Assembly: GCA_003222235.1 (NCBI GenBank)
Contig: QHVD01000026.1
Span: 1-34,577 of the forward strand
DNA: 34,577 nt
Origin: Gemmatimonadota bacterium
Lineage (GTDB): Bacteria; Gemmatimonadota; Gemmatimonadetes; Gemmatimonadales; GWC2-71-9
Direction: 5' to 3'
The notes beneath the pieces are model-generated. The model was not told the origin of the DNA, ran no database searches, and was given only the letters and a program-made list of their open reading frames with translations. Below, piece after piece: positions 9,635 to 24,508 of the stretch. The translations under genes were made by a program, and so were the position numbers. Numbering within the stretch: position 1 is the first letter of the stretch; each line of letters opens with the position of its first letter.

Positions 9635-9666
9635 TTGCTGGCAGTGGTCTTCGGGATATATTCGGG
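9635..9666 (+). promoter_or_regulatory. Putative sigma70-type promoter (TTGCTG-16-TATATT) with an embedded 19-nt motif TCTTCGGGATATATTCGGG (candidate SOS/LexA-type operator)
   Basis: The 19-mer at 9648-9666 is identical to 13496-13514, upstream of imuB. It contains nTTC-N7-nTTC and a TTCGGG-N5-TTCGGG direct repeat, and it overlaps the -10 hexamer. Confidence 0.45.
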
Positions 9667-9869: not shown

Positions 9870-11036
9870 ATGGCGGACAGGCGGACTGACCGACCGGCGG
9901 ACGGTGGAGGCGTAGGCGTGCGCGCGCGGCAGGTGCTCGAGCTTCAATTGTTTCCGTCCACCTGTCCGCCAGTCGCTCCGTCCGCCCTGTCTTCGTCCGC
10001 CAGTCCACCGGTGCGTCCGTCCGCCCTCCCGGTGCTCGACCAGCGGCTCCGCGGCACCAAGTTCGTGTCGCTCTCCCCGAAGTCGCTTCTCAACTCACCG
10101 CAGCAGACGGGCGTGGACTTCTGGTCCCTGAACCCGTACGTCGGCTGCGAGTTCGGTTGCACGTATTGCTACGCCCGTTATGCACACCGCTACGTGGTCG
10201 AGCGGGCGCACGACGCTGGGAAGCTCTCGGACGACGAGTTCCGCGAATTCCGCGGACCGCAGGGCTGGGAGGCGTTCGAGCGGCGCATCTTCGTCAAGGA
10301 ACGGACTCTCGGCGCGCTGGAGTCGGACCTGCAGCGTTACTTCCGGTCCGCCGGCCGGTCGCACGCTCAGCCCGCACCGATCGTCATCGGCACCGCGACC
10401 GATCCCTACCAGCCCGCCGAGCGGCATTTCCGGATCACCCGCCGGATCCTGGAGCGCCTGGCGTGCTGCGAAGGCCTCAACCTCGGGATCATCACGAAGA
10501 GCCCGCTCATCGCGCGCGATCTGGACGTGCTGCGGGACATCCAGGCCCGCAACGATCTCGAGGTGTACGTCTCGCTCATCACGGTGGACGCGCCGCTCAT
10601 CCGGAAGGTCGAGGCCCGCTCGCCGATGCCAGCGGTGCGGCTGCGAGCCCTGAAGCGGCTGACGGACGGCCGGATCAACGCCGGGCTCATCGTGGCGCCG
10701 GTCCTTCCGGGGATTACGGACGATTTGCCTCAGCTGGAAGCCCTATTCCGGGCGGCCCGCGAGGCCGGCGCCAGGTTCGTACACGCGGGACCCTTGCGTC
10801 TCTACCCCGCCGTGCGCGACCGCTACCTGCCGGTTCTCGAGAAGCACTTCCCGCATCTCGCCGGGCGCTACCGGCGCGCCTACGCTCGCCAGAGCAGCGC
10901 GCCGCGGGAATACGCGGCGGCGCTGGCGCGTCGCATCAAACAACTCCAGCGGAGGTTCGGGTTTCCGGCGAACGACGGGATGCGGGACCGCTACGCGCGG
11001 CGGCGGCCGCCCACCCAGGGAGCGCTCGAGCTATGA
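9870..11036 (+). CDS. Radical SAM protein, COG1533 / SplB-like (PA0069/Rv2578c-type) family
   Basis: SPKSLLNSPQQTGVDFWSLNPYVGCEFGCTYCYARY carries the CxxxCxxC cluster, followed by TDPYQP and further family blocks. The first ~54 codons are translated repeat sequence, so the true start may be GTG 10032. Confidence 0.85.
   Translation: MADRRTDRPADGGGVGVRARQVLELQLFPSTCPPVAPSALSSSASPPVRPSALPVLDQRLRGTKFVSLSPKSLLNSPQQTGVDFWSLNPYVGCEFGCTYCYARYAHRYVVERAHDAGKLSDDEFREFRGPQGWEAFERRIFVKERTLGALESDLQRYFRSAGRSHAQPAPIVIGTATDPYQPAERHFRITRRILERLACCEGLNLGIITKSPLIARDLDVLRDIQARNDLEVYVSLITVDAPLIRKVEARSPMPAVRLRALKRLTDGRINAGLIVAPVLPGITDDLPQLEALFRAAREAGARFVHAGPLRLYPAVRDRYLPVLEKHFPHLAGRYRRAYARQSSAPREYAAALARRIKQLQRRFGFPANDGMRDRYARRRPPTQGALEL
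9872..10025. repeat. Inverted arrays of an ~8-nt unit (GGCGGAC x3, then GTCCGCC x4)
   Basis: GGCGGAC occurs at 9872, 9880 and 9896. GTCCGCC occurs at 9964, 9980, 9995 and 10019. The arrays could form a long imperfect hairpin. They are stop-free in the frame of the downstream ORF. Confidence 0.55.
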
Positions 11037-11447
11037 CGGCTCAACCTGGCCCAGCTCGGTGACGGCGCGGATTTCCGCCCACAGGATACTCAAGTCGAGC
11101 GGCTGCGAGAGGAAGCGCTCCGAGCGGACCGGGCCGCCGAACGAGTCCGGCAGCGGGCTCGCCCCGCAGAGGATGAACCGGCCGAGGAGCTCCGGGCGCA
11201 ACGTCGTTGCCTCCCGCCACAGCCACAACCCGCCGTCCGACAGCATCACGACGCTACTGACCACGGCGTCAAACCTGCTCAGCAGGATCGCTTTCAGGCC
11301 CTCCAAGCAATCGGCCGCGGTGGCCACGCGGCAGCCGCGGTTGCGGAGGTGACGCGCCAGCGTCTCCCGCAGGTCGGGGTCGTCCGCGACGACCAGAATC
11401 GAAAGGGCAGATCGATTCACGGCGGAGAGCTGCGAACGGAAAACCAT
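11031..11447 (-). CDS. Single-domain response-regulator receiver, probably a pseudo-receiver
   Basis: ILVVADDPDLRETLARHLRNRGCRV matches a REC N-terminus. At the expected phospho-acceptor position, FDAVVSSVVMLSDGG reads Ser-Ser rather than the usual (D/S)D. There is no output domain. Confidence 0.65.
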   Translation of the reverse strand: MVFRSQLSAVNRSALSILVVADDPDLRETLARHLRNRGCRVATAADCLEGLKAILLSRFDAVVSSVVMLSDGGLWLWREATTLRPELLGRFILCGASPLPDSFGGPVRSERFLSQPLDLSILWAEIRAVTELGQVEPS

Positions 11448-11477
11448 GCGTGCACTCCGCCCGGGCGTCGCCGAACG

Positions 11478-11759
11478 CTAGGACACGCGGCTTTTCCCGT
11501 TGTAGTGGGTGATCAGTCGCTCGACCCAGCGCGGGGCTCGACGTCCTCGACCCGCGTAGGCCTCCGCCAAGAGGCGGCAGATCTTCCGGCCGAGGAAGGC
11601 GCCGTCCCGCCCGTCGATGCCGGTGGTCAGCCCTTCGACGAGAGCGACGATAGCGGCCGCCTTGCGTGACCGCGGTCCCCTGCGCATCGTCGCCGACCGG
11701 CGTTTGGGCCGCGTGCGGCTTGCAGGGACCCTCGCAGTGCGCTTCACCCTGCTTCCCAT
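11478..11759 (-). CDS. Truncated paralogue (P3) of the two upstream HTH proteins: C-terminal domain only, with a basic N-terminus
   Basis: AAIVALVEGLTTGIDGRDGAFLGRKICRLLAEAYAGRGRRAPRWVERLITHY aligns with IGQLVRLLDELSGDLSPQQTMRLGREIAGLLAAAYETRRLSPPRWVQQFLQQY of P1. Confidence 0.45.
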   Translation of the reverse strand: MGSRVKRTARVPASRTRPKRRSATMRRGPRSRKAAAIVALVEGLTTGIDGRDGAFLGRKICRLLAEAYAGRGRRAPRWVERLITHYNGKSRVS

Positions 11760-11784
11760 GCAGTTCCCACCGCCTCAAGAGCAT

Positions 11785-11805
11785 AACTGCACAAACCGCA
11801 CACAC
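11785..11805. promoter_or_regulatory. Direct-repeat motif AACTGCAC-AAACCGCAC-ACAC upstream of P3 (candidate operator)
   Basis: On the gene-sense strand it reads GTGTGTGCGGTTTGTGCAGTT, just downstream of a TTGCCG-17-TATATG promoter-like pair. Related motifs lie at 12392-12416 and 12901-12921. Confidence 0.35.
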
Positions 11806-11850
11806 ACATATACCACGACAACGCCGGAGCGGCAAGTCCCGGCGCGCGCA

Positions 11851-12270
11851 CTAGGCGACTTCGCCGGCGGCTTTGCCCCGGCGGGGGCGGTAATGACGCA
11901 GCAGTGCTCGTACCCAGGGCGGTGGGACCAGGCGCCGCGTCTCGTACGACTCGACGAGCAGCGCGGCGATTGCGCGCCCGAGCTGCACTGTCTGCTCGGG
12001 CGAGAAGTCCACGGCCAGCTCATTCAGCAGGCGGACGAACTGGCCCACGTTCGGCGGGCGCGTGGCCGTGCCCTGGGCGGTGAGCCAGCTCTCCAGCCTG
12101 GTGCGGGTTGCGCTGCGGGGCGACGAGCCCCGCAGGAAATCGCGCAGCCCGTTCGGGCTCACACCCGTCTCTCTCGCCAGACGTCGCAGGGAGAACCGCG
12201 CCGCCTCGCGAGCGAGCCCGTCCCGCAGCAGGGGGACCGGCAGCGTCGGGGCGGCTGGGCGTGCCGTCAT
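11851..12270 (-). CDS. Uncharacterised HTH protein, paralogue P2 (139 aa)
   Basis: MTARPAAPTLPVPLLRDGLAREAARFSLRRLARETGVSPNGLRDFLRGSSPRSATRTRLESWL... is alignable over its whole length with P1. The 291-aa track ORF is an N-terminal over-extension. Confidence 0.7.
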   Translation of the reverse strand: MTARPAAPTLPVPLLRDGLAREAARFSLRRLARETGVSPNGLRDFLRGSSPRSATRTRLESWLTAQGTATRPPNVGQFVRLLNELAVDFSPEQTVQLGRAIAALLVESYETRRLVPPPWVRALLRHYRPRRGKAAGEVA

Positions 12271-12391
12271 TGGACCCCTGCGAGGTGTCCGGTGCGCACC
12301 TCCGGGCCATGTCCGATGACGACGCCGTCGCCGGAGCGGCGATCGTCGCTCGGCGTCTCGACCTGCTCCTTGCGCCGTTTGGCACCACCCC

Positions 12392-12416
12392 GAACCGAAC
12401 TGCACGAACTGCACAC
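12392..12416. promoter_or_regulatory. Direct-repeat motif GAACCG-AACTGCAC-GAACTGCAC-AC upstream of P2 (candidate operator)
   Basis: On the gene-sense strand it reads GTGTGCAGTTCGTGCAGTTCGGTTC, downstream of a TTGACG -35-like hexamer. Confidence 0.35.
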
Positions 12417-12463
12417 GCCGTACAAGTACGGCAGCGGTTCCGCCCTCGTCAAGCCCCAATTCG

Positions 12464-12886
12464 TCAGGCGACTTCGCTGGCGGTTTTGCCTCGGCGCGCC
12501 CGGTACTGCTGCAGGAACTGTTGGACCCAGCGGGGCGGGGAGAGCCGGCGCGTCTCGTACGCCGCCGCGAGGAGTCCGGCAATCTCGCGCCCGAGTCGCA
12601 TCGTCTGCTGAGGGGAAAGATCCCCCGAGAGCTCATCGAGCAGGCGGACGAGCTGACCGATGTTCGGGGGGCGCGTGACCCGCTGCTGATTGGAGAGCCA
12701 GCGCTCGAGCTTCGCGCGGGTGGCACTGCGGGGAGCCGATCCGTTGAGGAAGTTCCGCAGGCCGTTCGGGCTCAAGGAGATCTGCGCAGCCGCCTGGCGC
12801 AACGAGAGCCGGGCCGTCTCGCGCGCGACGGCATCACGCAAGAGGGGAACTGGGAGCGTCGGGACGTTACGCCGGCCACCACTCAT
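12464..12886 (-). CDS. Uncharacterised HTH protein, paralogue P1 (140 aa)
   Basis: LPVPLLRDAVARETARLSLRQAAAQISLSPNGLRNFLNGSAPRSATRAKLERWL is an XRE-like helix-turn-helix. The C-terminal domain ends ...PPRWVQQFLQQYRARRGKTASEVA*. Confidence 0.7.
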   Translation of the reverse strand: MSGGRRNVPTLPVPLLRDAVARETARLSLRQAAAQISLSPNGLRNFLNGSAPRSATRAKLERWLSNQQRVTRPPNIGQLVRLLDELSGDLSPQQTMRLGREIAGLLAAAYETRRLSPPRWVQQFLQQYRARRGKTASEVA

Positions 12887-12900
12887 TCGGCGGCCCCCGG

Positions 12901-12921
12901 GTGTGCAAGTTGTGCGGTTTG
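12901..12921. promoter_or_regulatory. GTGTGCAAGTT-GTGCGGTTT-G motif upstream of P1, in inverted orientation relative to the P2/P3 copies
   Basis: The plus-strand sequence here resembles the minus-strand reading of the 11785 and 12392 motifs. A TTGCAC-17-TAAGGT promoter-like pair lies on the gene-sense strand just upstream. Confidence 0.3.
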
Positions 12922-13010
12922 CCCGGAGCTACACACCACAACCTTAGCATAACCCGGAGGACCGTGCAACCGGGAACGCCGCCCGTGGGCTCCTCCCCCG
13001 GGGCTCCGCG

Positions 13011-13436
13011 TCACCCCTCGCCCGTCATTGCCGCCGCGAGCGCGCGGATCGGCGTCGGGCGAGGATCAACGCCTCGATACGTCCACGGCAGATCGATCTG
13101 CTCCCTGAACGTCGGCATTTCGGTCCACGAGTTGAACACGTGCGCCACCTCGTGCCGCGCCGGCACCGCGCCTGTGCGCGTCGGTCAAAGAGCTCCGGGT
13201 TGCGCTGTTCGACCGCGTACGGAAATCCCGCGGGAGCCACCGGAAGAAACGGTCGAGCATACGCCGCAAGCACGTCCTCTGAGGGCGGCTCGTAAAACGC
13301 GCTGTCGATCCCCACCCAGGTCGACGCTGAACTCGACGGTGTGCGGGATCCATTTGCCGAGCTCAACCAGGTTCGCTGGAGGAGGCGGCAGCGCGGTGAC
13401 ATCGTCGAAGAAGCGGGGATGGTCCCGGCTGGCCAT
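13011..13436 (-). pseudogene. Decayed gene read in three frames (weak DUF72/UPF0759-like resemblance)
   Basis: Three frames each hold a protein-like piece. One reads MASRDHPRFFDDVTALPPPPANLVELGKWIPHTVEFS. One reads WVGIDSAFYEPPSEDVLAAYARPFLPVAPAGFPYAVEQRNPELFD. One reads VPARHEVAHVFNSWTEMPTFREQIDLPWTYRGVDPRPTPIRALAAAMTGEG*. No single frame is open across the span. Confidence 0.4.
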
Positions 13437-13480
13437 AGAAGTTGAAGTATAGCAACATGTTATCTCTCTAGAAACCGGCC

Positions 13481-13514
13481 TTGCGGCCCTTACAATCTTC
13501 GGGATATATTCGGG
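13481..13514 (+). promoter_or_regulatory. Putative promoter of the imuB-dnaE2 cassette (TTGCGG-18-TATATT) with the same embedded 19-nt motif (candidate SOS/LexA-type operator)
   Basis: TCTTCGGGATATATTCGGG at 13496-13514 is identical to 9648-9666 and overlaps the -10. It lies 20 nt upstream of the imuB ATG. imuB/dnaE2 cassettes are classically LexA-regulated. Confidence 0.5.
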
Positions 13515-13533
13515 TCCCTCTTGGGTGCTCTAG

Positions 13534-14832
13534 ATGGCGCGAAATCACCTGACGAGCTCCTCCGCCGTCTGCTGCTGGATACCGCTATTCGCGCTGCGCT
13601 GCGAAGCGGCGCGGCGACCCGAGCTCGGGTCCCGGCCCAGCGCGCTCGTCGCACCCGACGATACCCGCAGGGTGTGGCAGGTCTCGCCGCTCGCCCGGCA
13701 TGCGGGCGTGAAGCCCGGGATGACCGTCAGCCAGGCGATCGGTCTATGCCACACGCTCCTGCTGTGCGAAGCCGACCCGGTCTATTACGACGAGCAGTTC
13801 GCTCGACTGCTCTCCGCCCTGGGAGCGGTGAGTCCCGTCATCGAGGCGCCCGAGCTGGGCAGGGTGTTCGTGGGGACGGACGGGTTGGAAGGGTTGTATG
13901 GGGGGCCGGAACGGATCGCGGATGCGATCAAGTGCGGAGTGCGGAGTGCGGAGTGCGGAATTTCAATGCAAGCTCGTTCGCCACGACACTCACCTGAAAA
14001 CTCCGCATTCCGCACTCCGCATTCCGCACTCCGGGTGGGGTGGGGCATGGGCAAGTTCGTCTCCTGGGTGGCCGCGACCCGCGCCAAGCCAGGTGGCGCG
14101 GTCATCGTTCGCCCCGGGGAGGAGGGGAAGTTCCTCGCGGCGCAGCCGCTGGCCGTGTTGCCGCTCGATCCGGACACGCACCGCCGGCTGCGGCTGCTCG
14201 GGCTCCGCACGATTGGGGACCTCGCGGCGCTTCCGGAGGAAGCGGTGGTCTCGCAGCTCGGTCGCGCCGGGCGCCGCCTGTGGCGGCTCGCGGCGGGCGA
14301 GACCGCGGAGCGGGTCGTCGGCCGCGAGGCGCCTGAGCCGATCACCGCCGCCATCGCCTATTTCTCTCCGGTTGCCGAGCGGGAACTGCTCGCGCACGCG
14401 CTGGAGCAGCTGATCGAGCGCGCGCTCAGGCACCCGCGCCGCGCCGGCTGGCGGGTACAGGTGCTGCGTGCGCGCGCCGAGCTCGAGCACGGCGCGTCGT
14501 GGCTCGCCGAGGCGACGCTCAAGGACCCGTCGGCGGACCGGGATCGCATCGCCGCGCCGCTCAAGACGCGCCTCGAGCAGGCGCCCCCCACCGGGGCCGT
14601 GGAGCGGCTCGCCGTCGAGTTCACCGGGTTCGCGCCGGGCACCACCGAGCTGCAGCTCTTCGCGCGCGACGCGCGCGCCGCCGCCCGGGCCGGCCGACGC
14701 CGCGCGCTCCGCACCGCCGTCCACGAGATCAAGCTCCGGCTCAAGCGCCCGATGCTGTACCACGTCATCGCCGTCCAGCCATGGTCGCGCATCCCCGAAC
14801 GCCGCTACGCGCTGATCGACTATGAACCCTAG
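13534..14832 (+). CDS. imuB: ImuB, Y-family-polymerase-like component of the ImuB/DnaE2 mutasome; catalytic-fold part only, truncated by a repeat-borne TAG
   Basis: The N-terminus reads AVCCWIPLFALRCEAARRPEL...VSPLARHAGVKPGMTVSQA...DPVYYDEQF...SPVIEAPELGRVFVGTDGLEGLYGG. The gene sits directly upstream of dnaE2. It contains an in-frame ~35-codon repeat insert (CGVRSAECGISMQ...[12 protein letters not shown]). Confidence 0.85.
   Translation: MARNHLTSSSAVCCWIPLFALRCEAARRPELGSRPSALVAPDDTRRVWQVSPLARHAGVKPGMTVSQAIGLCHTLLLCEADPVYYDEQFARLLSALGAVSPVIEAPELGRVFVGTDGLEGLYGGPERIADAIKCGVRSAECGISMQARSPRHSPENSAFRTPHSALRVGWGMGKFVSWVAATRAKPGGAVIVRPGEEGKFLAAQPLAVLPLDPDTHRRLRLLGLRTIGDLAALPEEAVVSQLGRAGRRLWRLAAGETAERVVGREAPEPITAAIAYFSPVAERELLAHALEQLIERALRHPRRAGWRVQVLRARAELEHGASWLAEATLKDPSADRDRIAAPLKTRLEQAPPTGAVERLAVEFTGFAPGTTELQLFARDARAAARAGRRRALRTAVHEIKLRLKRPMLYHVIAVQPWSRIPERRYALIDYEP
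13931..14033. repeat. Hairpin-type heptamer element inside imuB: (AGTGCGG)x4 - 41-nt spacer - inverted 31-mer
   Basis: The left arm is 13931-13958 (+aat). The right arm, 14000-14030 (actccgcattccgcactccgcattccgcact), is identical to 21683-21713. The arms pair with G:T (G:U) wobbles. The element is read through in frame. Confidence 0.9.
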
Positions 14833-14861
14833 TGCGGAATGCGGAGTGCGGAATGCGGAAT
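14831..14861. repeat. 31-nt heptamer element AGTGCGGAATGCGGAGTGCGGAATGCGGAAT (left copy of a perfect inverted pair)
   Basis: The reverse complement of 15164-15194 is identical, 31 of 31. The preceding T plus the element's first AG form the imuB stop TAG (14830-14832). Confidence 0.95.
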
Positions 14862-15125
14862 AGGCCTGACAGGCTTCGGGCGCTAAATGTGCCGCAACGG
14901 GTGGAGGTGGAGCTGGACGAACGCGGGGTGCCGGCGTTCGTGAAACCGAAGACGGGAAACGGGAAACGGATCGAGTCCATCGGCGAGACCTGGCGCATCG
15001 ACGACGAGTGGTGGCGACGACCGATCTCGCGTCGCCATGTCGAGGCGATCCTGGAGAGGGGTAAGCGGGTGGTGCTGTTCGAGGATCTGATGACGGCCGA
15101 GTGGTGGATGCAGATGCCGACATAA
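14832..15125 (+). CDS. Stand-alone ImuB C-terminal domain (split from imuB)
   Basis: LNVPQRVEVELDERGVPAFVKP...IGETWRIDDEWWRRPISRRHVEAILERGKRVVLFEDLMTAEWWMQ matches my recollection of the ImuB C-terminal block (ERIxxEWW...RDY...LFRD...WFLHG). GTG 14832 overlaps the imuB TAG as TAGTG. Alternative starts are ATG 14853 and GTG 14889. Confidence 0.6.
   Translation: MRNAECGMRNRPDRLRALNVPQRVEVELDERGVPAFVKPKTGNGKRIESIGETWRIDDEWWRRPISRRHVEAILERGKRVVLFEDLMTAEWWMQMPT
14952..14970. repeat. AACGGGA-family heptamer array (about 2.5 units) inside the ImuB C-terminal ORF
   Basis: gacgggaaacgggaaacgga encodes KTGNGKR. The same family occurs at 17674-17708. Confidence 0.7.
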
Positions 15126-15126
15126 C

Positions 15127-15194
15127 GCGGCATTCGGAATGCGGCAGCGAAGCCCGACCTTCGATTCCGCATTCCGCACTCCGCATTCCGCACT
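15127..15194. repeat. Hairpin-type heptamer element between the ImuB-C ORF stop and the dnaE2 ATG (degenerate left arm, palindromic spacer, perfect 31-mer right arm)
   Basis: The element reads gcggcattcggaatgcggcag - cgaagcccgaccttcg - attccgcattccgcactccgcattccgcact. It ends one base before ATG 15195. Confidence 0.9.
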
Positions 15195-18100
15195 ATGTAT
15201 ATCGAACTTCACTGCCACTCCGCCTTCTCGTTCCTCGACGGCGCCTCACTCCCCGAGCAGCTCGCGCTCACGGCCGCGCAGCTCGGCTACCCGGCGTTGG
15301 CGCTCACCGATCACAACGGCCTGTACGGCTCGATGGCGTTCGCACAGGAGGCGAAGCACCTCGGCCTGCAGGCGATCACCGGCTCGGAAGTGACGCTGCT
15401 CGACGGCTCGCACGTGACGCTGCTCGCCGAAACGCCCGAGGGGTACGCGAACCTGTGCCGGCTGATCACCGAAGCACATCTGGGCCGTGTCGACCGCCGC
15501 GACCCGCGACTCGACTTCGCTTCGCTCGAGCGGCGGCACGAGGGGCTCGTCGTACTCTCCGGCTGCCGCGCCGGACTGCTCGCAACCGTGCTCGAGAAGG
15601 AAGGCCGCGCCGCCGCCCGGAGGCTGCTTGAGCGCTGCCGTGCCGAGTTCGGGAAGGAGAGCTTCTTCGTCGAGCTCCAGCGCAACCTGGTCCGCGGCGA
15701 TCGCGACCTTACGCGCGCACTCTGCGATCTCGCGGATCGCGTACAACTTGGCGTCGTAGCGACGGGGAACGTGCACTATCACACGCGCGAGCGGCATCGG
15801 CTGCACGACGTGCTCGTCGCGATCCGGCACCGCGCGACGCTCGACGGCTCGCACGACGTGCGGCGACCGAACAGCGAGTTCTCCCTGCGGCCGCCCCAGG
15901 AGGTCGCGGCGCTCTTCTCCGATCGGCCCGACGCGGTCGCGAACACCGGCGTGATCGCCGAGCGCTGCGGGACGTTCGACCTGACGCGCGACCTCGGCTA
16001 CGTCTTTCCCGACTTCCGTGGCGCAGGCCGGACGTCCGCCCCGCAGGCCCTGGCCGAGCTGTGCCGCACGAGGCTAGAGGAGCGCTATCCCCCGGGTTCC
16101 GCCCACCGGGACGAGGCCGAGCGGCGCCTCGAGCAAGAGCTGGCGCTCATCGAGCGCCATCGACTCAGCGGGTTCTTCCTGGTCTATCACGACCTCTTCG
16201 ACCTGGCCCGCGAAGTGGCGGCGGATGTGCGCCGGGGTACCCGGCGGGCCCACGGGAACCTGCTCCCCGGCCGCGGCCGCGGCTCGTCGGTGTCGTCCAT
16301 CGTATGCTACCTGCTCGGCCTGTCGCACATCGACCCGGTCGCGAACCGGCTGTTCATCGGGCGATTTCTCAACGAGACCCTCGCGTCGGTGCCCGACATC
16401 GATCTCGACTTCCCGCGCGAGATCCGCGAGGAGCTGATCCGCCGGGTCTACAGGCGCTACGGCGACGAGCACGTCGGGCTCGTCTGCTCGTTCCCCACCT
16501 ACCGGCTCCGCTCGGCGGTGCGAGAGATCGGCAAGGCGCTGGATCTGCCGCTGGGAGAGATCGAGCAGACGGCGAAACTGGCGGACCGGCGGTCGGGCGG
16601 GGGCGGACTGGCGGACGAGTTGGACCAGCTCCCGGGCTTCGAGGGACGGCGCACGGCCCCGCTCTGGAAAGAGCTTTGCGAGCTGGCCGAGGAGATCACG
16701 GGGCTGCCCCGCCACGTGTCGCAGCACGTCGGCGGGATGATCATCTCGAGCCGGCCTCTCGTCGAGCTCGTGCCGCTCGAGCGCGCGGCGATGGAGGACC
16801 GCGTCGTGTGCCAGTGGGACAAGGACTCCTGCGACGACGCGCGCTTCATCAAGATCGATTTTCTCGCGCTCGGCATGTTGTCGCTGGTGGAGGAGTGCGT
16901 CGAGCTGGTCGCCGCGGGCACGGGGACGCCGCCCGACCTCTCCCGCATTGATTTCGATGACCCCGCGGTCTACGACCGCATCTGCCGCGGCGACACCGTG
17001 GGGCTGTTCCAGATCGAGAGCCGCGCGCAGATCCAGATGATCCGCCGCACCCGGCCGAAGAACCTCGAAGACTTGGCCGTCGAGGTGGCGATCGTGCGGC
17101 CGGGGCCGATCGTGGGCGGCGCCGTGAACCCGTACGTGCGCCGCCGTGAGGCGCAGCGCCGCGCCGAAGCCGAGGGGCGCCGCTACGAGCCGCCGGTGGA
17201 CCACCCGCTCCTGAAGCCCGTGCTGGCGGAGACGCTGGGCGTGATTCTCTATCAGGACCAGGTGTTGCAGGTGTGCCAGGCGCTGGCCGGGTTCACGACC
17301 GGGCAGGCCGAGGCGCTGCGCCGCGCGATGAGCCGCCGGCGCAGCCGCGAGCTGATGGCGGGGTTCTGGGAGGAGTTCAAGGACGGGGCGGCGGCGCGCG
17401 GGGTCCCCGAGTCCGTCGCGCAGCGCGTGTTCACGCAGGTGATCGCGTTCTCCGAGTTCGGATTCCCCAAGTCCCATGCGGCGGCGTTTGGGCTGCTCGC
17501 CTACCAGTCGGCGTGGCTCCGGCACTATCACCCAGTCGAGTATTACTGCGCGCTCTTCAACAACCAGCCGATGGGGTTCTACTCGCTCGACGTGCTCGGG
17601 CGGGACGCGCAGCGCAACGGCATCGAGATCCGGCTCCCGGACGTGAACCGGAGCGACGTGTGGTGCACCATAGAACGGGAAACGGGAAACGGGAAACGGG
17701 AAACGGGGGCGGTGCGGGTGGGGCTCGGGTTCGTCCGTGACTGGAGCGAGGAGACGGCGACCGCCGTCGTGACCGAGCGCGAGCGCAACGGCCCGTTCCG
17801 GAGCGTCGGCGAGCTCGTGCGCCGCGCGCCTCCCAAGCTCAAGCGCAGCGCGATCGAGAACGTCGTGTGGGTGGGCGGGTGCGACGGCTTCGGTCTCACA
17901 CGGCGCGAGCTGTTGTGGCAGATAGGGCTGTGGCTCCCGCCCCGGGAGGAGCGCGGCGGTGACGCACGCGGCCGGCGCCAGCTCGAGCTCGCGCTCAACC
18001 ACCCGCACGAGCACTTGCGCTTCGGCGGCCTGGAGCCGGGCGAGCGGATGCTCGCCGAATACGCGGTGTTGGGGTTCGCGGTGAGCGGCCACCCGCTCGA

Positions 18101-18527
18101 GCTGCTACGCCAGGCGCTGCCGCGCGGGATGGCGAAGAGCGACGCGCTCCCGCGGCTCGAACACGGGACATGGGTCGAGGTGGCGGGCCTCGTGGTCGCG
18201 CGCCAGCGTCCCGAAACGGCGAAGGGGTTCATCTTCGTGCTGCTGGAGGACGAGGCGGGGATGGTGAACGTCATCGTACGGCCGGACGTATTCCAGCAGC
18301 ACCGCGCCGCGATCCGCGGCGAGCCGTTCCTGTGGGTGCGGGGGAAGCTCGCGAAGGACGACGGGACGGTGAACGTGGTGGCGGAGGAGGTGCGGGGACT
18401 CAGACTGAATGCGGAATGCGGAGTGCGGAATGCGGAATCGACGGGCGAGCCCACCATTCCCCATTCACCGTACGCCTTCCTGAAGACGATGCGCCGGGTG
18501 GCGCCGGAATCGAAGGATTGGGGCTAG
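15195..18527 (+). CDS. dnaE2: Error-prone DNA polymerase III alpha-like subunit DnaE2 (ImuC)
   Basis: The PHP domain reads YIELHCHSAFSFLDGASLPEQL...LALTDHNGLYG. Pol III alpha core blocks include GRGSSVSSIVCYLLGLSHIDP, DIDLDF, FQIESRAQ and RPGPIVGG. The protein is 1110 aa and lies downstream of imuB. Confidence 0.95.
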   Translation: MYIELHCHSAFSFLDGASLPEQLALTAAQLGYPALALTDHNGLYGSMAFAQEAKHLGLQAITGSEVTLLDGSHVTLLAETPEGYANLCRLITEAHLGRVDRRDPRLDFASLERRHEGLVVLSGCRAGLLATVLEKEGRAAARRLLERCRAEFGKESFFVELQRNLVRGDRDLTRALCDLADRVQLGVVATGNVHYHTRERHRLHDVLVAIRHRATLDGSHDVRRPNSEFSLRPPQEVAALFSDRPDAVANTGVIAERCGTFDLTRDLGYVFPDFRGAGRTSAPQALAELCRTRLEERYPPGSAHRDEAERRLEQELALIERHRLSGFFLVYHDLFDLAREVAADVRRGTRRAHGNLLPGRGRGSSVSSIVCYLLGLSHIDPVANRLFIGRFLNETLASVPDIDLDFPREIREELIRRVYRRYGDEHVGLVCSFPTYRLRSAVREIGKALDLPLGEIEQTAKLADRRSGGGGLADELDQLPGFEGRRTAPLWKELCELAEEITGLPRHVSQHVGGMIISSRPLVELVPLERAAMEDRVVCQWDKDSCDDARFIKIDFLALGMLSLVEECVELVAAGTGTPPDLSRIDFDDPAVYDRICRGDTVGLFQIESRAQIQMIRRTRPKNLEDLAVEVAIVRPGPIVGGAVNPYVRRREAQRRAEAEGRRYEPPVDHPLLKPVLAETLGVILYQDQVLQVCQALAGFTTGQAEALRRAMSRRRSRELMAGFWEEFKDGAAARGVPESVAQRVFTQVIAFSEFGFPKSHAAAFGLLAYQSAWLRHYHPVEYYCALFNNQPMGFYSLDVLGRDAQRNGIEIRLPDVNRSDVWCTIERETGNGKRETGAVRVGLGFVRDWSEETATAVVTERERNGPFRSVGELVRRAPPKLKRSAIENVVWVGGCDGFGLTRRELLWQIGLWLPPREERGGDARGRRQLELALNHPHEHLRFGGLEPGERMLAEYAVLGFAVSGHPLELLRQALPRGMAKSDALPRLEHGTWVEVAGLVVARQRPETAKGFIFVLLEDEAGMVNVIVRPDVFQQHRAAIRGEPFLWVRGKLAKDDGTVNVVAEEVRGLRLNAECGVRNAESTGEPTIPHSPYAFLKTMRRVAPESKDWG
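17674..17708. repeat. Tandem heptamer array (AACGGGA)x5 inside dnaE2, read in frame
   Basis: gaacgggaaacgggaaacgggaaacgggaaacgggg encodes ERETGNGKRETG. Confidence 0.9.
18408..18470. repeat. 31-mer heptamer element (30/31 to 14831-14861) plus a degenerate inverted arm, in frame near the dnaE2 3' end
   Basis: aatgcggaatgcggagtgcggaatgcggaat (18408-18438) is followed by cgacgggcgagcccacc and then attccccattcaccg. It encodes [21 protein letters not shown]. Confidence 0.85.
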
Positions 18528-24425: not shown

Positions 24426-24508
24426 ACCATTCTATGGCGAAAATTTACCGAAGGGGAGGGGCATGAACGCGGCGAACAGCCAGCAAACAGCATTAAACAG
24501 TATAATAG

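What the first reader, a model, noticed from the sequence alone, without database searches (positions are those of the whole stretch)
11031..12886. Tandem array of three paralogous genes of an uncharacterised HTH family plus a pseudo-receiver, wedged between the two putative SOS units
P1 (140 aa) and P2 (139 aa) align end to end. Each has an XRE-like HTH (SL/LR..A...G.SPNGLR.FL.GS) and a C-terminal domain (PPN.GQ.VRLL.EL...S P.QT..LGR.IA.LL...YETRRL.PP.WV...L..Y) that I cannot place in any family. P3 keeps only the C-terminal domain behind an Arg/Lys-rich N-terminus.

A REC-like protein follows on the same strand. Its acceptor position appears to be Ser rather than Asp (VVSSVVM). Local triplication with domain loss suggests a rapidly evolving regulatory or antagonist set, for example a regulator plus a decoy. 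Its position between a LexA-box-like promoter pair makes it a candidate accessory module of the damage response.
Basis: partly seen in the sequence, partly recalled or inferred. Interest (0 to 1): 0.6.

Follow-up and report, generated by a model that had tools for sequence, protein, structure and literature searches.

The report
Self-regulated HTH paralogue cluster, Gemmatimonadota
Three related small genes and a decayed receiver gene form an old, conserved and transcribed regulatory cassette of a DNA-binding protein family found only in the soil phylum Gemmatimonadota; it has its own operator, and nothing found here ties it functionally to the DNA-damage genes on either side.

Summary
P1 (140 aa) and P2 (139 aa) are 63% identical XRE-type HTH proteins with an unclassified three-helix C-terminal domain. 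P3 (93 aa) keeps only that domain behind a basic, disordered N-terminus. The REC protein has Ser at the acceptor position and Gln at the conserved Lys position.

The "rapidly evolving local triplication" reading does not hold. P2 and P3 each arose once, deep in Gemmatimonadales. All three evolve under purifying selection (median dN/dS 0.13, 0.21, 0.32).

Every transcription unit of the cluster carries a private 17-bp tandem repeat, AACYGCAC-A-AACYGCAC. It lies at or just after the predicted transcription start. This differs from the TTCGGG-N5-TTCGGG box on the flanking imuB and radical-SAM promoters.

Distant family members elsewhere in the phylum keep the same layout with a different 8-mer (AAGTGGAC) and a different recognition helix. 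This makes the repeat the likely operator of the family.

A stand-alone receiver is the recurrent partner. It is canonical where P1 stands alone with it, and degenerate or truncated wherever P2 and P3 exist.

Four soil metatranscriptomes show RNA from P1, P2 and P3-REC, but none from the neighbouring SOS-type units.

Best reading: an autoregulated repressor circuit with a SinI-like HTH-less antagonist. A role in the damage response rests on neighbourhood alone.

The parts
12464..12886 (-). P1: the core member of the family. N-terminal XRE-type HTH (helices 13-66), a three-helix C-terminal domain (76-127) and a disordered tail ending in -SEVA.
   Evidence: ORF. HTH_31 at 29.2 bits. AF2 model pLDDT 80.8. 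Orthologue present in all 44 genome loci. dN/dS 0.13. RNA contigs 12431-12917.
11851..12270 (-). P2: a full-length paralogue (HTH plus C-terminal domain), 63% identical to P1.
   Evidence: The P2-type forms a single clade (100/99). dN/dS 0.21. RNA contigs 12076-12382.
11478..11759 (-). P3: an HTH-less paralogue with a basic, disordered N-terminus (about 31 aa) and the three-helix domain. A GTG at 11747 is an alternative start, matching the orthologues that begin V/L/M-K-R behind an AGGAG.
   Evidence: AF2 helices 32-45, 50-70, 77-91. Single clade (100/97). dN/dS 0.32. RNA contigs 11567-11784.
11031..11447 (-). Degenerate stand-alone receiver (REC): D57 to S, K109 to Q, T87 to G, D12 to A. It is co-transcribed with P3, and its stop overlaps the stop of the convergent radical-SAM gene.
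   Evidence: RNA contigs 11379-11556 span the P3/REC junction.
12903..12919 (-). Motif B copy in the P1 leader: AACCGCACAACTTGCAC, ending 17 nt before the P1 start codon.
   Evidence: The same position (17 nt in most, 8-26 nt in the rest) recurs in front of P1 orthologues.
12398..12414 (+). Motif B copy at the P2 promoter, inverted relative to the gene. It reads GTGCAGTTCGTGCAGTT on the gene strand.
11785..11801 (+). Motif B copy at the P3-REC promoter, inverted relative to the gene. It reads GTGCGGTTTGTGCAGTT on the gene strand and starts 6 nt after the predicted -10.
12941..12969 (-). Predicted P1 promoter: TTGCAC (12964-12969), 17 nt spacer, TAAGGT (12941-12946), followed by the conserved GTGTAGC/GTGTAAC block.
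   Evidence: Read. The layout is conserved in P1 upstream regions of relatives and of distant family members. Inference, not mapped.
12423..12452 (-). Predicted P2 promoter: TTGACG (12447-12452), then a weak -10 (TACTTG).
   Evidence: Read. L002 has TACGTT at this place. Inference.
11807..11836 (-). Predicted P3-REC promoter: CTTGCC (11831-11836), 18 nt spacer, TATATG (11807-11812).
   Evidence: Read. Conserved in P3 upstream regions. Inference.
13498..13514 (+). Context only: motif A, TTCGGGATATATTCGGG, on the imuB promoter 20 nt before the imuB ATG. Probable SOS (LexA-type) box.
9650..9666 (+). Context only: an identical motif A copy upstream of the radical-SAM unit.
13077..13442 (-). Context only: frameshifted and deleted remnant of a DUF72 gene. 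In about 30 relatives this gene is intact and lies directly upstream of P1.

Best explanation
P1 and P2 are sequence-specific DNA-binding proteins of a Gemmatimonadota-specific branch of the XRE-type HTH superfamily. They would assemble through their three-helix C-terminal domain.

They would bind a tandem direct repeat of two 8-mers, AACYGCAC-N-AACYGCAC. One copy lies at or just downstream of the predicted transcription start of each unit in the cluster (P1, P2, P3-REC). The cluster would therefore be a closed negative-feedback circuit.

P3 is the assembly domain without the HTH. It would form mixed oligomers with P1/P2 and lower their operator binding, as SinI does to SinR.

The stand-alone receiver is the ancestral signal input of the family. 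A phosphorylatable REC is encoded beside the HTH gene. In this genome it has lost the acceptor Asp and the conserved Lys. It is then either phosphorylation-independent or decaying, its role having passed to P2/P3.

Shown here: paralogy, fold class, purifying selection, single origins of P2 and P3, motif positions, change of the motif together with the recognition helix, REC decay where P2/P3 are present, and transcription in situ.

Inferred only: DNA binding to the repeat, repression, the P3 heteromer, and REC-to-HTH signalling.
For: Motif B in this order:
- Motif B occurs three times in the window against 0.01 expected.
- Across about 600 kb of related loci, all close matches (up to 2 mismatches) but one lie in front of family or REC genes. 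It is in direct orientation 8-26 nt (17 nt in most) before P1 starts. It is in inverted orientation behind a -35/-10 pair before P2, P3 and REC.
- No other transcription-factor gene lies in the cluster.

The same layout elsewhere in the phylum:
- Distant members (a Gemmatimonadota MAG and Longimicrobium) keep the order promoter, then GTGTAAC in three of the five, then tandem 8-mers. The 8-mer there is AAGTGGAC or AAGTAGAC.
- Their recognition helix is SP(S/T)GL(R/Q)KF instead of SPNGLRNF.

The proteins:
- The P1 model has an XRE-type HTH plus three helices. The HTH part matches HipB, P22 C2 and MBF1 locally.
- P3 is homologous to the C-terminal domain only.
- P3 is conserved as one clade with dN/dS 0.32.

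The receiver:
- REC sits next to the HTH gene in three separate subfamilies.
- It is canonical in 14 of 16 P1+REC-only loci. It is degenerate or truncated in all 5 loci that also have P2/P3.

Expression: RNA contigs from four metatranscriptomes cover P1, P2 and P3-REC as separate pieces. Their 5' ends lie about 17 nt short of the predicted starts for P1 and P3, and about 30 nt short for P2. DNA runs cover the whole region evenly.
Against: - No binding, interaction or regulation was measured.
- XRE-type dimers usually read inverted repeats, not direct repeats 9 bp apart.
- L035 and L044 have a conserved HTH but no motif B upstream.
- The exact 17-mer also occurs in six high-GC metagenome contigs without family genes, so targets outside the cluster or another binder are possible.
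- The C-terminal domain has no known relative that shows it oligomerises.
- The REC-versus-P2/P3 pattern is not corrected for shared ancestry.
- RNA contig depth is low (2-6) and contigs carry no strand.
Confidence: 0.5

Rival explanations
1. Accessory module of the DNA-damage response. The cluster would be controlled with, or would itself control, the imuB-dnaE2 mutasome, the radical-SAM repair unit and lhr. It could act, for example, as a second regulatory layer or as a stand-in for the missing imuA.
For: - P1 lies between DUF72/imuB-dnaE2 and the Rv2578c-type radical-SAM gene in about 30 genomes. In a distant clade it lies between lhr and that radical-SAM gene.
- All three neighbours carry the TTCGG-N6-TTCGG box.
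- No imuA gene is present in these cassettes.
- The top full-length Foldseek hit is DdrO, the Deinococcus damage-response repressor, but it is not significant (E 0.31).
Against: - None of the cluster promoters has the TTCGG box, and none of the SOS-type promoters has motif B.
- RNA contigs cover the cluster but not imuB, dnaE2 or the radical-SAM gene in four samples.
- The amino-acid permease and pheA are equally conserved neighbours, so the synteny may simply be inherited.
- Distant members sit beside REC, SNF2/SWIM, TPR or unrelated genes.
- No similarity to ImuA or RecA was found.
Confidence: 0.2
2. P1/P2, rather than LexA, bind the TTCGGG-N5-TTCGGG box. P1 would then be the LexA-independent master repressor of the flanking damage genes, and motif B would belong to another factor.
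For: - The box is a direct repeat, like motif B.
- P1 sits between two copies of the box.
- The box and P1 co-occur in all clades that have the radical-SAM neighbour.
Against: - Motif B, not motif A, tracks the family genes one to one and changes with the recognition helix.
- Earlier scan notes report the same TTCGG repeats on lexA and recA promoters of other Gemmatimonadales. This is a lead I did not test.
- Direct-repeat LexA boxes that regulate polymerases, a helicase and a radical-SAM gene are documented in other phyla (PMC7739468).
Confidence: 0.05
3. Motif B acts at the RNA level. The P1 leader carries the sense copy and the P2, P3 and REC transcripts begin with its complement. The mRNAs would pair with each other, or a leader structure would control translation.
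For: - The copies are 17-nt near-perfect complements.
- In most loci the P1 copy sits at a fixed 17 nt from the start codon.
Against: - The P1 leader folds no better than shuffled sequence (z +1.12).
- There is no Rfam match in the cluster.
- Single-copy loci have only the upstream copy.
- RNA contig ends fall 1-3 nt (P3) and 16 nt (P2) downstream of motif B, so it may be largely untranscribed.
- The motif changing together with the HTH recognition helix fits protein-DNA reading.
Confidence: 0.04
4. Only P1 is functional. P2, P3 and REC are duplicates and remnants on their way out, with no role as antagonist or input.
For: - REC has lost key residues here and is truncated in L010, L014 and L143.
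- Copy number and gene order vary, and many genomes have P1 alone.
- The DUF72 gene next door is a pseudogene.
Against: - P2 and P3 are intact in about 20 genomes.
- dN/dS is 0.21 and 0.32.
- Each has a single old origin.
- Each has its own conserved promoter and operator and RNA coverage.
Confidence: 0.1

Closest known systems
SinR / SinI of Bacillus subtilis (XRE-type repressor and its small antagonist)
   Same: - An HTH repressor with a helical C-terminal assembly domain.
- An adjacent small protein homologous to that assembly domain only.
- The small protein is expected to form a heteromer that removes the repressor from DNA.
- SinR (1b0n) appears among the Foldseek hits.
   Different: - The SinR hit rests on the HTH only and is not significant (E 0.81).
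- The three-helix domain has no detectable similarity to the SinR/SinI hook.
- P3 has a long basic N-terminus.
- There are two HTH paralogues.
- The operators are direct repeats.
- No interaction has been shown.
DdrO (with the IrrE/PprI protease) of Deinococcus
   Same: - About 130 aa, with an XRE-type HTH plus a helical C-terminal domain.
- The gene lies among DNA-repair genes.
- Best full-length Foldseek hit (6jq1).
   Different: - The hit is not significant (E 0.31, TM 0.32, rmsd 12.7).
- No COG2856-type protease gene lies in the window or the related loci.
- The operator is a tandem repeat and not the palindromic RDRM.
- The cluster is not co-regulated with the neighbouring damage genes as far as the motifs and RNA show.
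Single-domain response regulators that act by protein binding (CheY, CpdR, RssB receiver)
   Same: - The REC orthologues are stand-alone receivers with D12/D13/D57/S87/K109.
- The best NCBIfam match of the window copy is CpdR (E 1e-10, far below the cut-off).
   Different: - The window copy lacks D57 and K109, so it is a pseudo-receiver.
- No kinase gene lies nearby.
- A partnership with an XRE-type HTH protein is inferred from adjacency only.
Direct-repeat LexA boxes (Alphaproteobacteria GTTC-N7-GTTC; Balneolaeota, PMC7739468)
   Same: This applies to the flanking motif A only. It is an 11-bp-period direct repeat on the promoters of an error-prone polymerase cassette, a radical-SAM gene and a helicase.
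   Different: - It is not part of the finding itself.
- The cluster's own repeat (motif B, 9-bp period) is a different sequence and occurs only at family genes.

Membership tests
XRE-type HTH (Pfam HTH_31 / HTH_3, lambda-repressor-like fold) | Profile score at or above the curated cut-off | tested here: met
   P1 scores 29.2 bits on HTH_31 against a cut-off of 27. P2 scores 24.7 bits, below the cut-off, but is 63% identical to P1.
XRE-type HTH (Pfam HTH_31 / HTH_3, lambda-repressor-like fold) | Four- to five-helix bundle with helix-turn-helix | tested here: met
   The AF2 model has helices 13-25, 29-36, 40-47 and 54-66 at pLDDT 86-96. It has local Foldseek matches to HipB, P22 C2, MBF1 and ClgR at rmsd 1.8-3 A over 52-60 residues and probability 0.9-0.99. 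Whole-chain E-values are above 0.1.
SinR/SinI-type repressor-antagonist pair | The antagonist is homologous to the repressor's assembly domain and lacks the HTH | tested here: met
   P3 aligns to P1 residues 55-128 (E 2e-10) and has no HTH.
SinR/SinI-type repressor-antagonist pair | Sequence or fold homology to the SinR C-terminal/SinI domain | tested here: not met
   The C-terminal domain has no Pfam hit. The P3 model has no PDB fold match (best E 4.3).
SinR/SinI-type repressor-antagonist pair | A heteromer forms and abolishes operator binding | not testable with these tools
   Only single-chain prediction was available, and there are no binding data.
DdrO/IrrE damage-response switch | Homology of the repressor to DdrO | tested here: inconclusive
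   DdrO (6jq1) is the top Foldseek hit over 139 columns, but with E 0.31, TM 0.32 and rmsd 12.7. There is no sequence hit in the PDB.
DdrO/IrrE damage-response switch | Cognate COG2856 metalloprotease and a palindromic RDRM operator | tested here: not met
   No such gene lies in the window or the neighbourhoods, though the whole genome could not be searched. The operators are tandem repeats.
LexA | S24 peptidase domain with an Ala-Gly cleavage site | tested here: not met
   P1, P2 and P3 have no Peptidase_S24 hit. The proteins are 140 aa or shorter and all-helical.
Response regulator receiver (PF00072) | Profile match | tested here: inconclusive
   28.5 bits against a cut-off of 30.2, residues 17-79 only. 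NCBIfam receiver models match residues 16-129 (E 1e-10).
Response regulator receiver (PF00072) | Phospho-acceptor Asp57 and Lys109 (CheY numbering) | tested here: not met
   The window copy has S57 and Q109. The orthologues L024, L029, L030, L032, L034, L043, L080, L121, L155, L159 and others keep D57 and K109.
ImuA / ImuA' (mutasome RecA-like subunit) | RecA-like fold or sequence | tested here: not met
   No such hit in Pfam or NCBIfam. The models are all-helical and small.

The most novel reading that the evidence does not exclude
The family is a phylum-wide, split two-component output. A stand-alone receiver, phosphorylated by a distant kinase, docks on the three-helix domain of an XRE-type repressor that reads tandem 8-mer direct repeats.

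In the crown Gemmatimonadales the receiver has been replaced by an HTH-less paralogue (P3) and a second repressor (P2). The rewired switch sits in the SOS island because it gates the error-prone polymerase cassette together with LexA.
Probability: 0.12. Interest if true: 0.65.

Novelty: new variant of a known kind. Interest (0 to 1): 0.4.

Why it matters
Gemmatimonadota are abundant soil bacteria with almost no experimentally studied regulators. This cluster gives a testable entry point.

- It is a phylum-specific HTH family.
- It has a predicted operator whose two variable positions change together with the recognition helix.
- It contains a natural regulator-plus-truncated-paralogue pair.
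- It records a stand-alone receiver decaying where that paralogue appears.

If the circuit also touches the adjacent mutasome, it would add a LexA-independent layer to induced mutagenesis. The present evidence does not show that.

Tried and rejected
- **Inversion switch:** P1 is flanked by inverted motif B copies. Four DNA metagenome runs show even coverage and no strand-changing joints, and all 44 loci have one orientation.
- **RNA element:** the P1 leader is not more stable than shuffles. Rfam gives only spurious miRNA hits on the heptamer hairpin inside imuB.
- **Defence or phage origin:** P1-P3 have no PADLOC or PHROGs hit.
- **Placing the C-terminal domain:** Pfam on 27 members, a PDB profile search, and Foldseek of the P1 and P3 models all found nothing significant.
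- **Regulon by motif:** I scanned metagenome contigs for the exact 17-mer. Most of the 120 stretches are low-GC chance matches and 17 carry family genes. Six high-GC contigs without family genes stay unexplained.
- **Own-genome searches:** lexA, further motif B sites, a kinase and IrrE could not be looked for because the genome search was shut.
- **Literature:** I found no paper on a Gemmatimonadota SOS system or on this family.
- **Promoter and terminator scan:** it found none of the cluster promoters. Their -10 hexamers are of the TAnnnT type with G/C inside. It found no terminators.

Full report
**1. What is there**

Four ORFs lie head to tail on the minus strand.
- P1, 12464-12886, 140 aa.
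- P2, 11851-12270, 139 aa. Its ATG follows AGGGG inside a longer open frame.
- P3, 11478-11759, 93 aa.
- REC, 11031-11447, 138 aa. Its stop overlaps the stop of the convergent radical-SAM gene (9870-11036).

P1 and P2 are 63% identical over their whole length. P3 aligns with P1 residues 55-128 (31% identity, E 2e-10) and with P2 (E 4e-8).

Pfam HTH_31 scores P1 above its cut-off and P2 just below it. P3 has no hit.

The AlphaFold model of P1 has a mean pLDDT of 80.8. It shows an XRE-type helix bundle (helices 13-25, 29-36, 40-47, 54-66), a linker, three further helices (76-86, 92-112, 119-127) and a disordered tail.

The P3 model (pLDDT 70.7) shows a disordered basic N-terminus and the same three helices.

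The three-helix domain cannot be placed.
- Pfam gives no family shared by the 27 members tested.
- The PDB gives no sequence match.
- Foldseek gives no fold match (best E 4.3).

For full-length P1, Foldseek gives only non-significant hits. DdrO is first (E 0.31), followed by XRE-type HTH domains such as HipB, SinR, P22 C2 and MBF1.

Aligned with CheY, REC has S at D57, Q at K109, G at T87 and A at D12.

**2. Surroundings**

To the right of the cluster lie these features.
- The remnant of a DUF72 gene (13077-13442, frameshifted and shortened).
- The divergent imuB-dnaE2 cassette.
- msrA, a hydrolase gene, lhr and ispH.

To the left lie these genes.
- A radical-SAM gene of the Rv2578c/PA0069 type.
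- pheA.
- An amino-acid permease gene.

The 17-mer TTCGGGATATATTCGGG ("motif A") occurs at 13498-13514, 20 nt before the imuB ATG, and at 9650-9666 before the radical-SAM unit. That is 2 matches against 0.02 expected. A one-mismatch TTCGG-N6-TTCG copy lies 12 nt before lhr.

Direct-repeat LexA boxes that control polymerases, a helicase and a radical-SAM gene are documented in other phyla (PMC7739468). Earlier notes of this scan report the same repeats on lexA and recA promoters of other Gemmatimonadales. I could not test that lead here because genome search was shut. I take motif A to be the probable SOS box of the lineage. It is context, not part of the finding.

**3. Relatives and history**

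P1 has 375 close homologues, all unnamed or "hypothetical" and from soil-type metagenomes and Gemmatimonadetes MAGs. A scan of species-representative genomes gave 44 loci, all Gemmatimonadales or Gemmatimonadota.

The usual gene order is dnaE2 <- imuB <- | -> DUF72 -> P1 [-> extras] <- radical-SAM, followed by the permease. DUF72 is intact in about 30 loci. A distant clade (L036-L042) instead has ispH -> lhr -> P1 <- radical-SAM.

Copy number varies (further P1-REC pairs came from the metagenome scan).

| Composition | Loci |
|---|---|
| P1 alone | L018, L021-L023, L025-L027, L036-L042 |
| P1-REC | L017, L024, L029, L030, L032, L034, L043, plus 11 metagenome contigs |
| P1-P2-P3 or P1-P3-P2 | about 20 loci |
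| Two P3-type genes | L019, L020 |

A maximum-likelihood tree puts all 22 short proteins in one clade (100/97). All P2-type proteins form one clade (100/99) nested among crown-group P1 sequences.

Pairwise dN/dS within clades has these medians: 0.13 for P1, 0.21 for P2 and 0.32 for P3. The paralogues are therefore old, retained and constrained. They are neither a recent triplication nor pseudogenes.

**4. A private operator**

Upstream of every P1 orthologue the layout is as follows.
- TTGCnn, about 17 nt, TAnnnT.
- The conserved block GTGTAAC.
- AACYGCAC-A-AAYTGCAC ("motif B"), ending 17 nt before the start codon in most loci and 8-26 nt in the rest.

In front of P2, P3 and REC genes there is another -35/-10 pair. 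It is followed within 5-8 nt by the same 17-mer in inverted orientation.

In the window the copies are at 12903-12919, 12398-12414 and 11785-11801, 3 matches against 0.01 expected. Across about 600 kb of related loci, close matches (up to 2 mismatches) occur only next to family or REC genes, apart from one 2-mismatch site in L021. A few 3-mismatch sites lie elsewhere. Motif A never occurs at these promoters.

A profile search of 1.84 billion representatives found 969 relatives. Those that could be named are a Gemmatimonadota MAG and a Longimicrobium.

Five such distant genes carry tandem 8-mers upstream. Three of the five also show the promoter and a GTGTAAC-like block before them. The 8-mer is AAGTGGAC, or AAGTAGAC in L174. 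Their recognition helix reads SP(S/T)GL(R/Q)KF instead of SPNGLRNF.

The half-sites differ at two positions (AA-S-TG-S-AC). The cis-element thus changes together with the DNA-reading helix. This is the main argument that the repeat is the family's own operator. No binding was measured.

**5. The receiver**

A stand-alone receiver sits beside the HTH gene in three separate subfamilies.
- Downstream of P1 in basal Gemmatimonadales.
- Divergent from P0155 in L045, with a canonical Response_reg match (E 8e-17).
- Divergent from P0156 in L051, where it is weakly REC-like.

In loci with P1 and REC only, REC keeps D57 and K109 in 14 of 16 cases. In the five loci that also have P2/P3 (window, L019, L010, L014, L143) it is substituted or truncated. 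In about 14 further P2/P3 loci it is absent. By my own hand calculation, Fisher's exact test on 14/2 against 0/5 gives about 0.001, uncorrected for shared ancestry.

This pattern fits a hand-over of the receiver's role to the new paralogues.

**6. Expression**

Four soil metatranscriptomes hold 18-45% of the words of the cluster. Their contigs cover these stretches.
- P1, 12431-12917.
- P2, 12076-12382.
- P3, 11567-11784.
- The P3/REC junction, 11379-11556.
- REC, 11280-11430.

The gaps fall exactly at the motif B promoters. The 5' ends stop about 17 nt short of the predicted starts for P1 and P3, and about 30 nt short for P2.

Over 13 kb, no genuine contig lies on the radical-SAM gene, the DUF72 remnant, imuB or dnaE2. 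Only snippets of the heptamer repeats match there. DNA runs from the same kind of samples cover the whole stretch evenly, so the RNA pattern is not DNA carry-over.

The cluster is therefore transcribed as three units (P1; P2; P3-REC) under conditions in which the SOS-type neighbours give no RNA contigs. Depths are low and contigs carry no strand.

**7. Mechanism proposed**

P1 and P2 bind motif B, which lies at or after the predicted +1 of each unit, and repress their own cluster. P3 lacks the HTH but keeps the assembly domain, and would titrate them as SinI does SinR. REC was the ancestral input and is defunct or phosphorylation-independent here.

One further detail is worth recording. Of 107 full-length homologues, 78 end in -(E/D)VA on a disordered tail, and P3 never does. 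From general knowledge of C-terminal degrons this could be a protease tag. That is speculation.

**8. Rivals**

- **Damage-response module.** This rests on neighbourhood only. The separate operators, the expression pattern and the varied contexts of distant members weigh against it.
- **P1 as binder of motif A.** This is not favoured, because motif B, not motif A, tracks the family.
- **RNA-level role of motif B.** There is no leader structure (z +1.12) and no Rfam match.
- **Inversion switch.** No inversion joints appear in the DNA runs.

**9. Limits**

- The window's own genome and its relatives could not be searched. The rest of the motif B regulon, a cognate kinase, lexA and an IrrE-like protease are therefore untested.
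- The metagenome scan for the exact 17-mer was dominated by chance matches.
- Six high-GC contigs carry the 17-mer without family genes and remain unexplained.

**Verdict**

This is a new, phylum-restricted variant of a familiar kind of circuit: an autoregulated HTH repressor with a truncated-paralogue antagonist and a receiver partner. It is of moderate interest.

Noticed in passing
window 13077-13442 (-): The DUF72 gene is intact and directly upstream of P1 in about 30 relatives. It is tandemly duplicated in L010 and L014-L017. Here, and in L001, only a frameshifted and shortened remnant is left.
   Followed up: partly
window 24437-24452 (-): A one-mismatch copy of the TTCGG-N6-TTCGG box (TTCGGTAAATTTTCGC) lies 12 nt before the lhr start. 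lhr probably belongs to the same regulon as imuB-dnaE2 and the radical-SAM unit.
   Followed up: no
window 13930-14031, 14832-15195, about 17670-17710, about 18410-18440: Heptamer repeats (AGTGCGG/AATGCGG, translated as ...[10 protein letters not shown]...) are embedded in and between imuB and dnaE2. They give spurious miRNA hits in Rfam. They also attract partial RNA and DNA contigs from other organisms.
   Followed up: no
P0135, P0140, P0151, P0129 (wider family): Some family members are chains of 3 to about 14 copies of the roughly 55-aa HTH module. At least one of them (P0140) ends in a stretch resembling the C-terminal domain. Such proteins could read long tandem arrays of the 8-mer.
   Followed up: no
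L118 3570-3586; L093 526-542; L165 3595-3611; L106 4949-4965; L078/L139: The exact motif B 17-mer occurs in high-GC metagenome contigs that hold no family gene. In L118 it sits right behind a CTTGCT-N17-TAGTAT promoter. L093 and L165 share conserved flanks. These could be further targets or chance matches.
   Followed up: partly
L028 7408-7575: In this genome the P1 position holds only a C-terminal fragment and DUF72 is missing, while P2 and P3 are intact. P1 is therefore not indispensable once P2 exists.
   Followed up: no
window 12741-12772 and 13286-13316: In soil DNA runs these 31-32-mers reach 5-15 times the depth of their surroundings. They encode the SPNGLRNF helix and a DUF72 block. 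Many co-occurring relatives evidently share them letter for letter.
   Followed up: no
L176 356-1579: A distant lineage also has two family paralogues on one strand (P0235 and a 140-aa protein), with a 125-aa gene between them. Local duplication of this family has happened more than once.
   Followed up: no
window 11031-11036: The REC and radical-SAM genes converge and their stop codons overlap. No terminator-like hairpin was found anywhere in 10900-13650.
   Followed up: no
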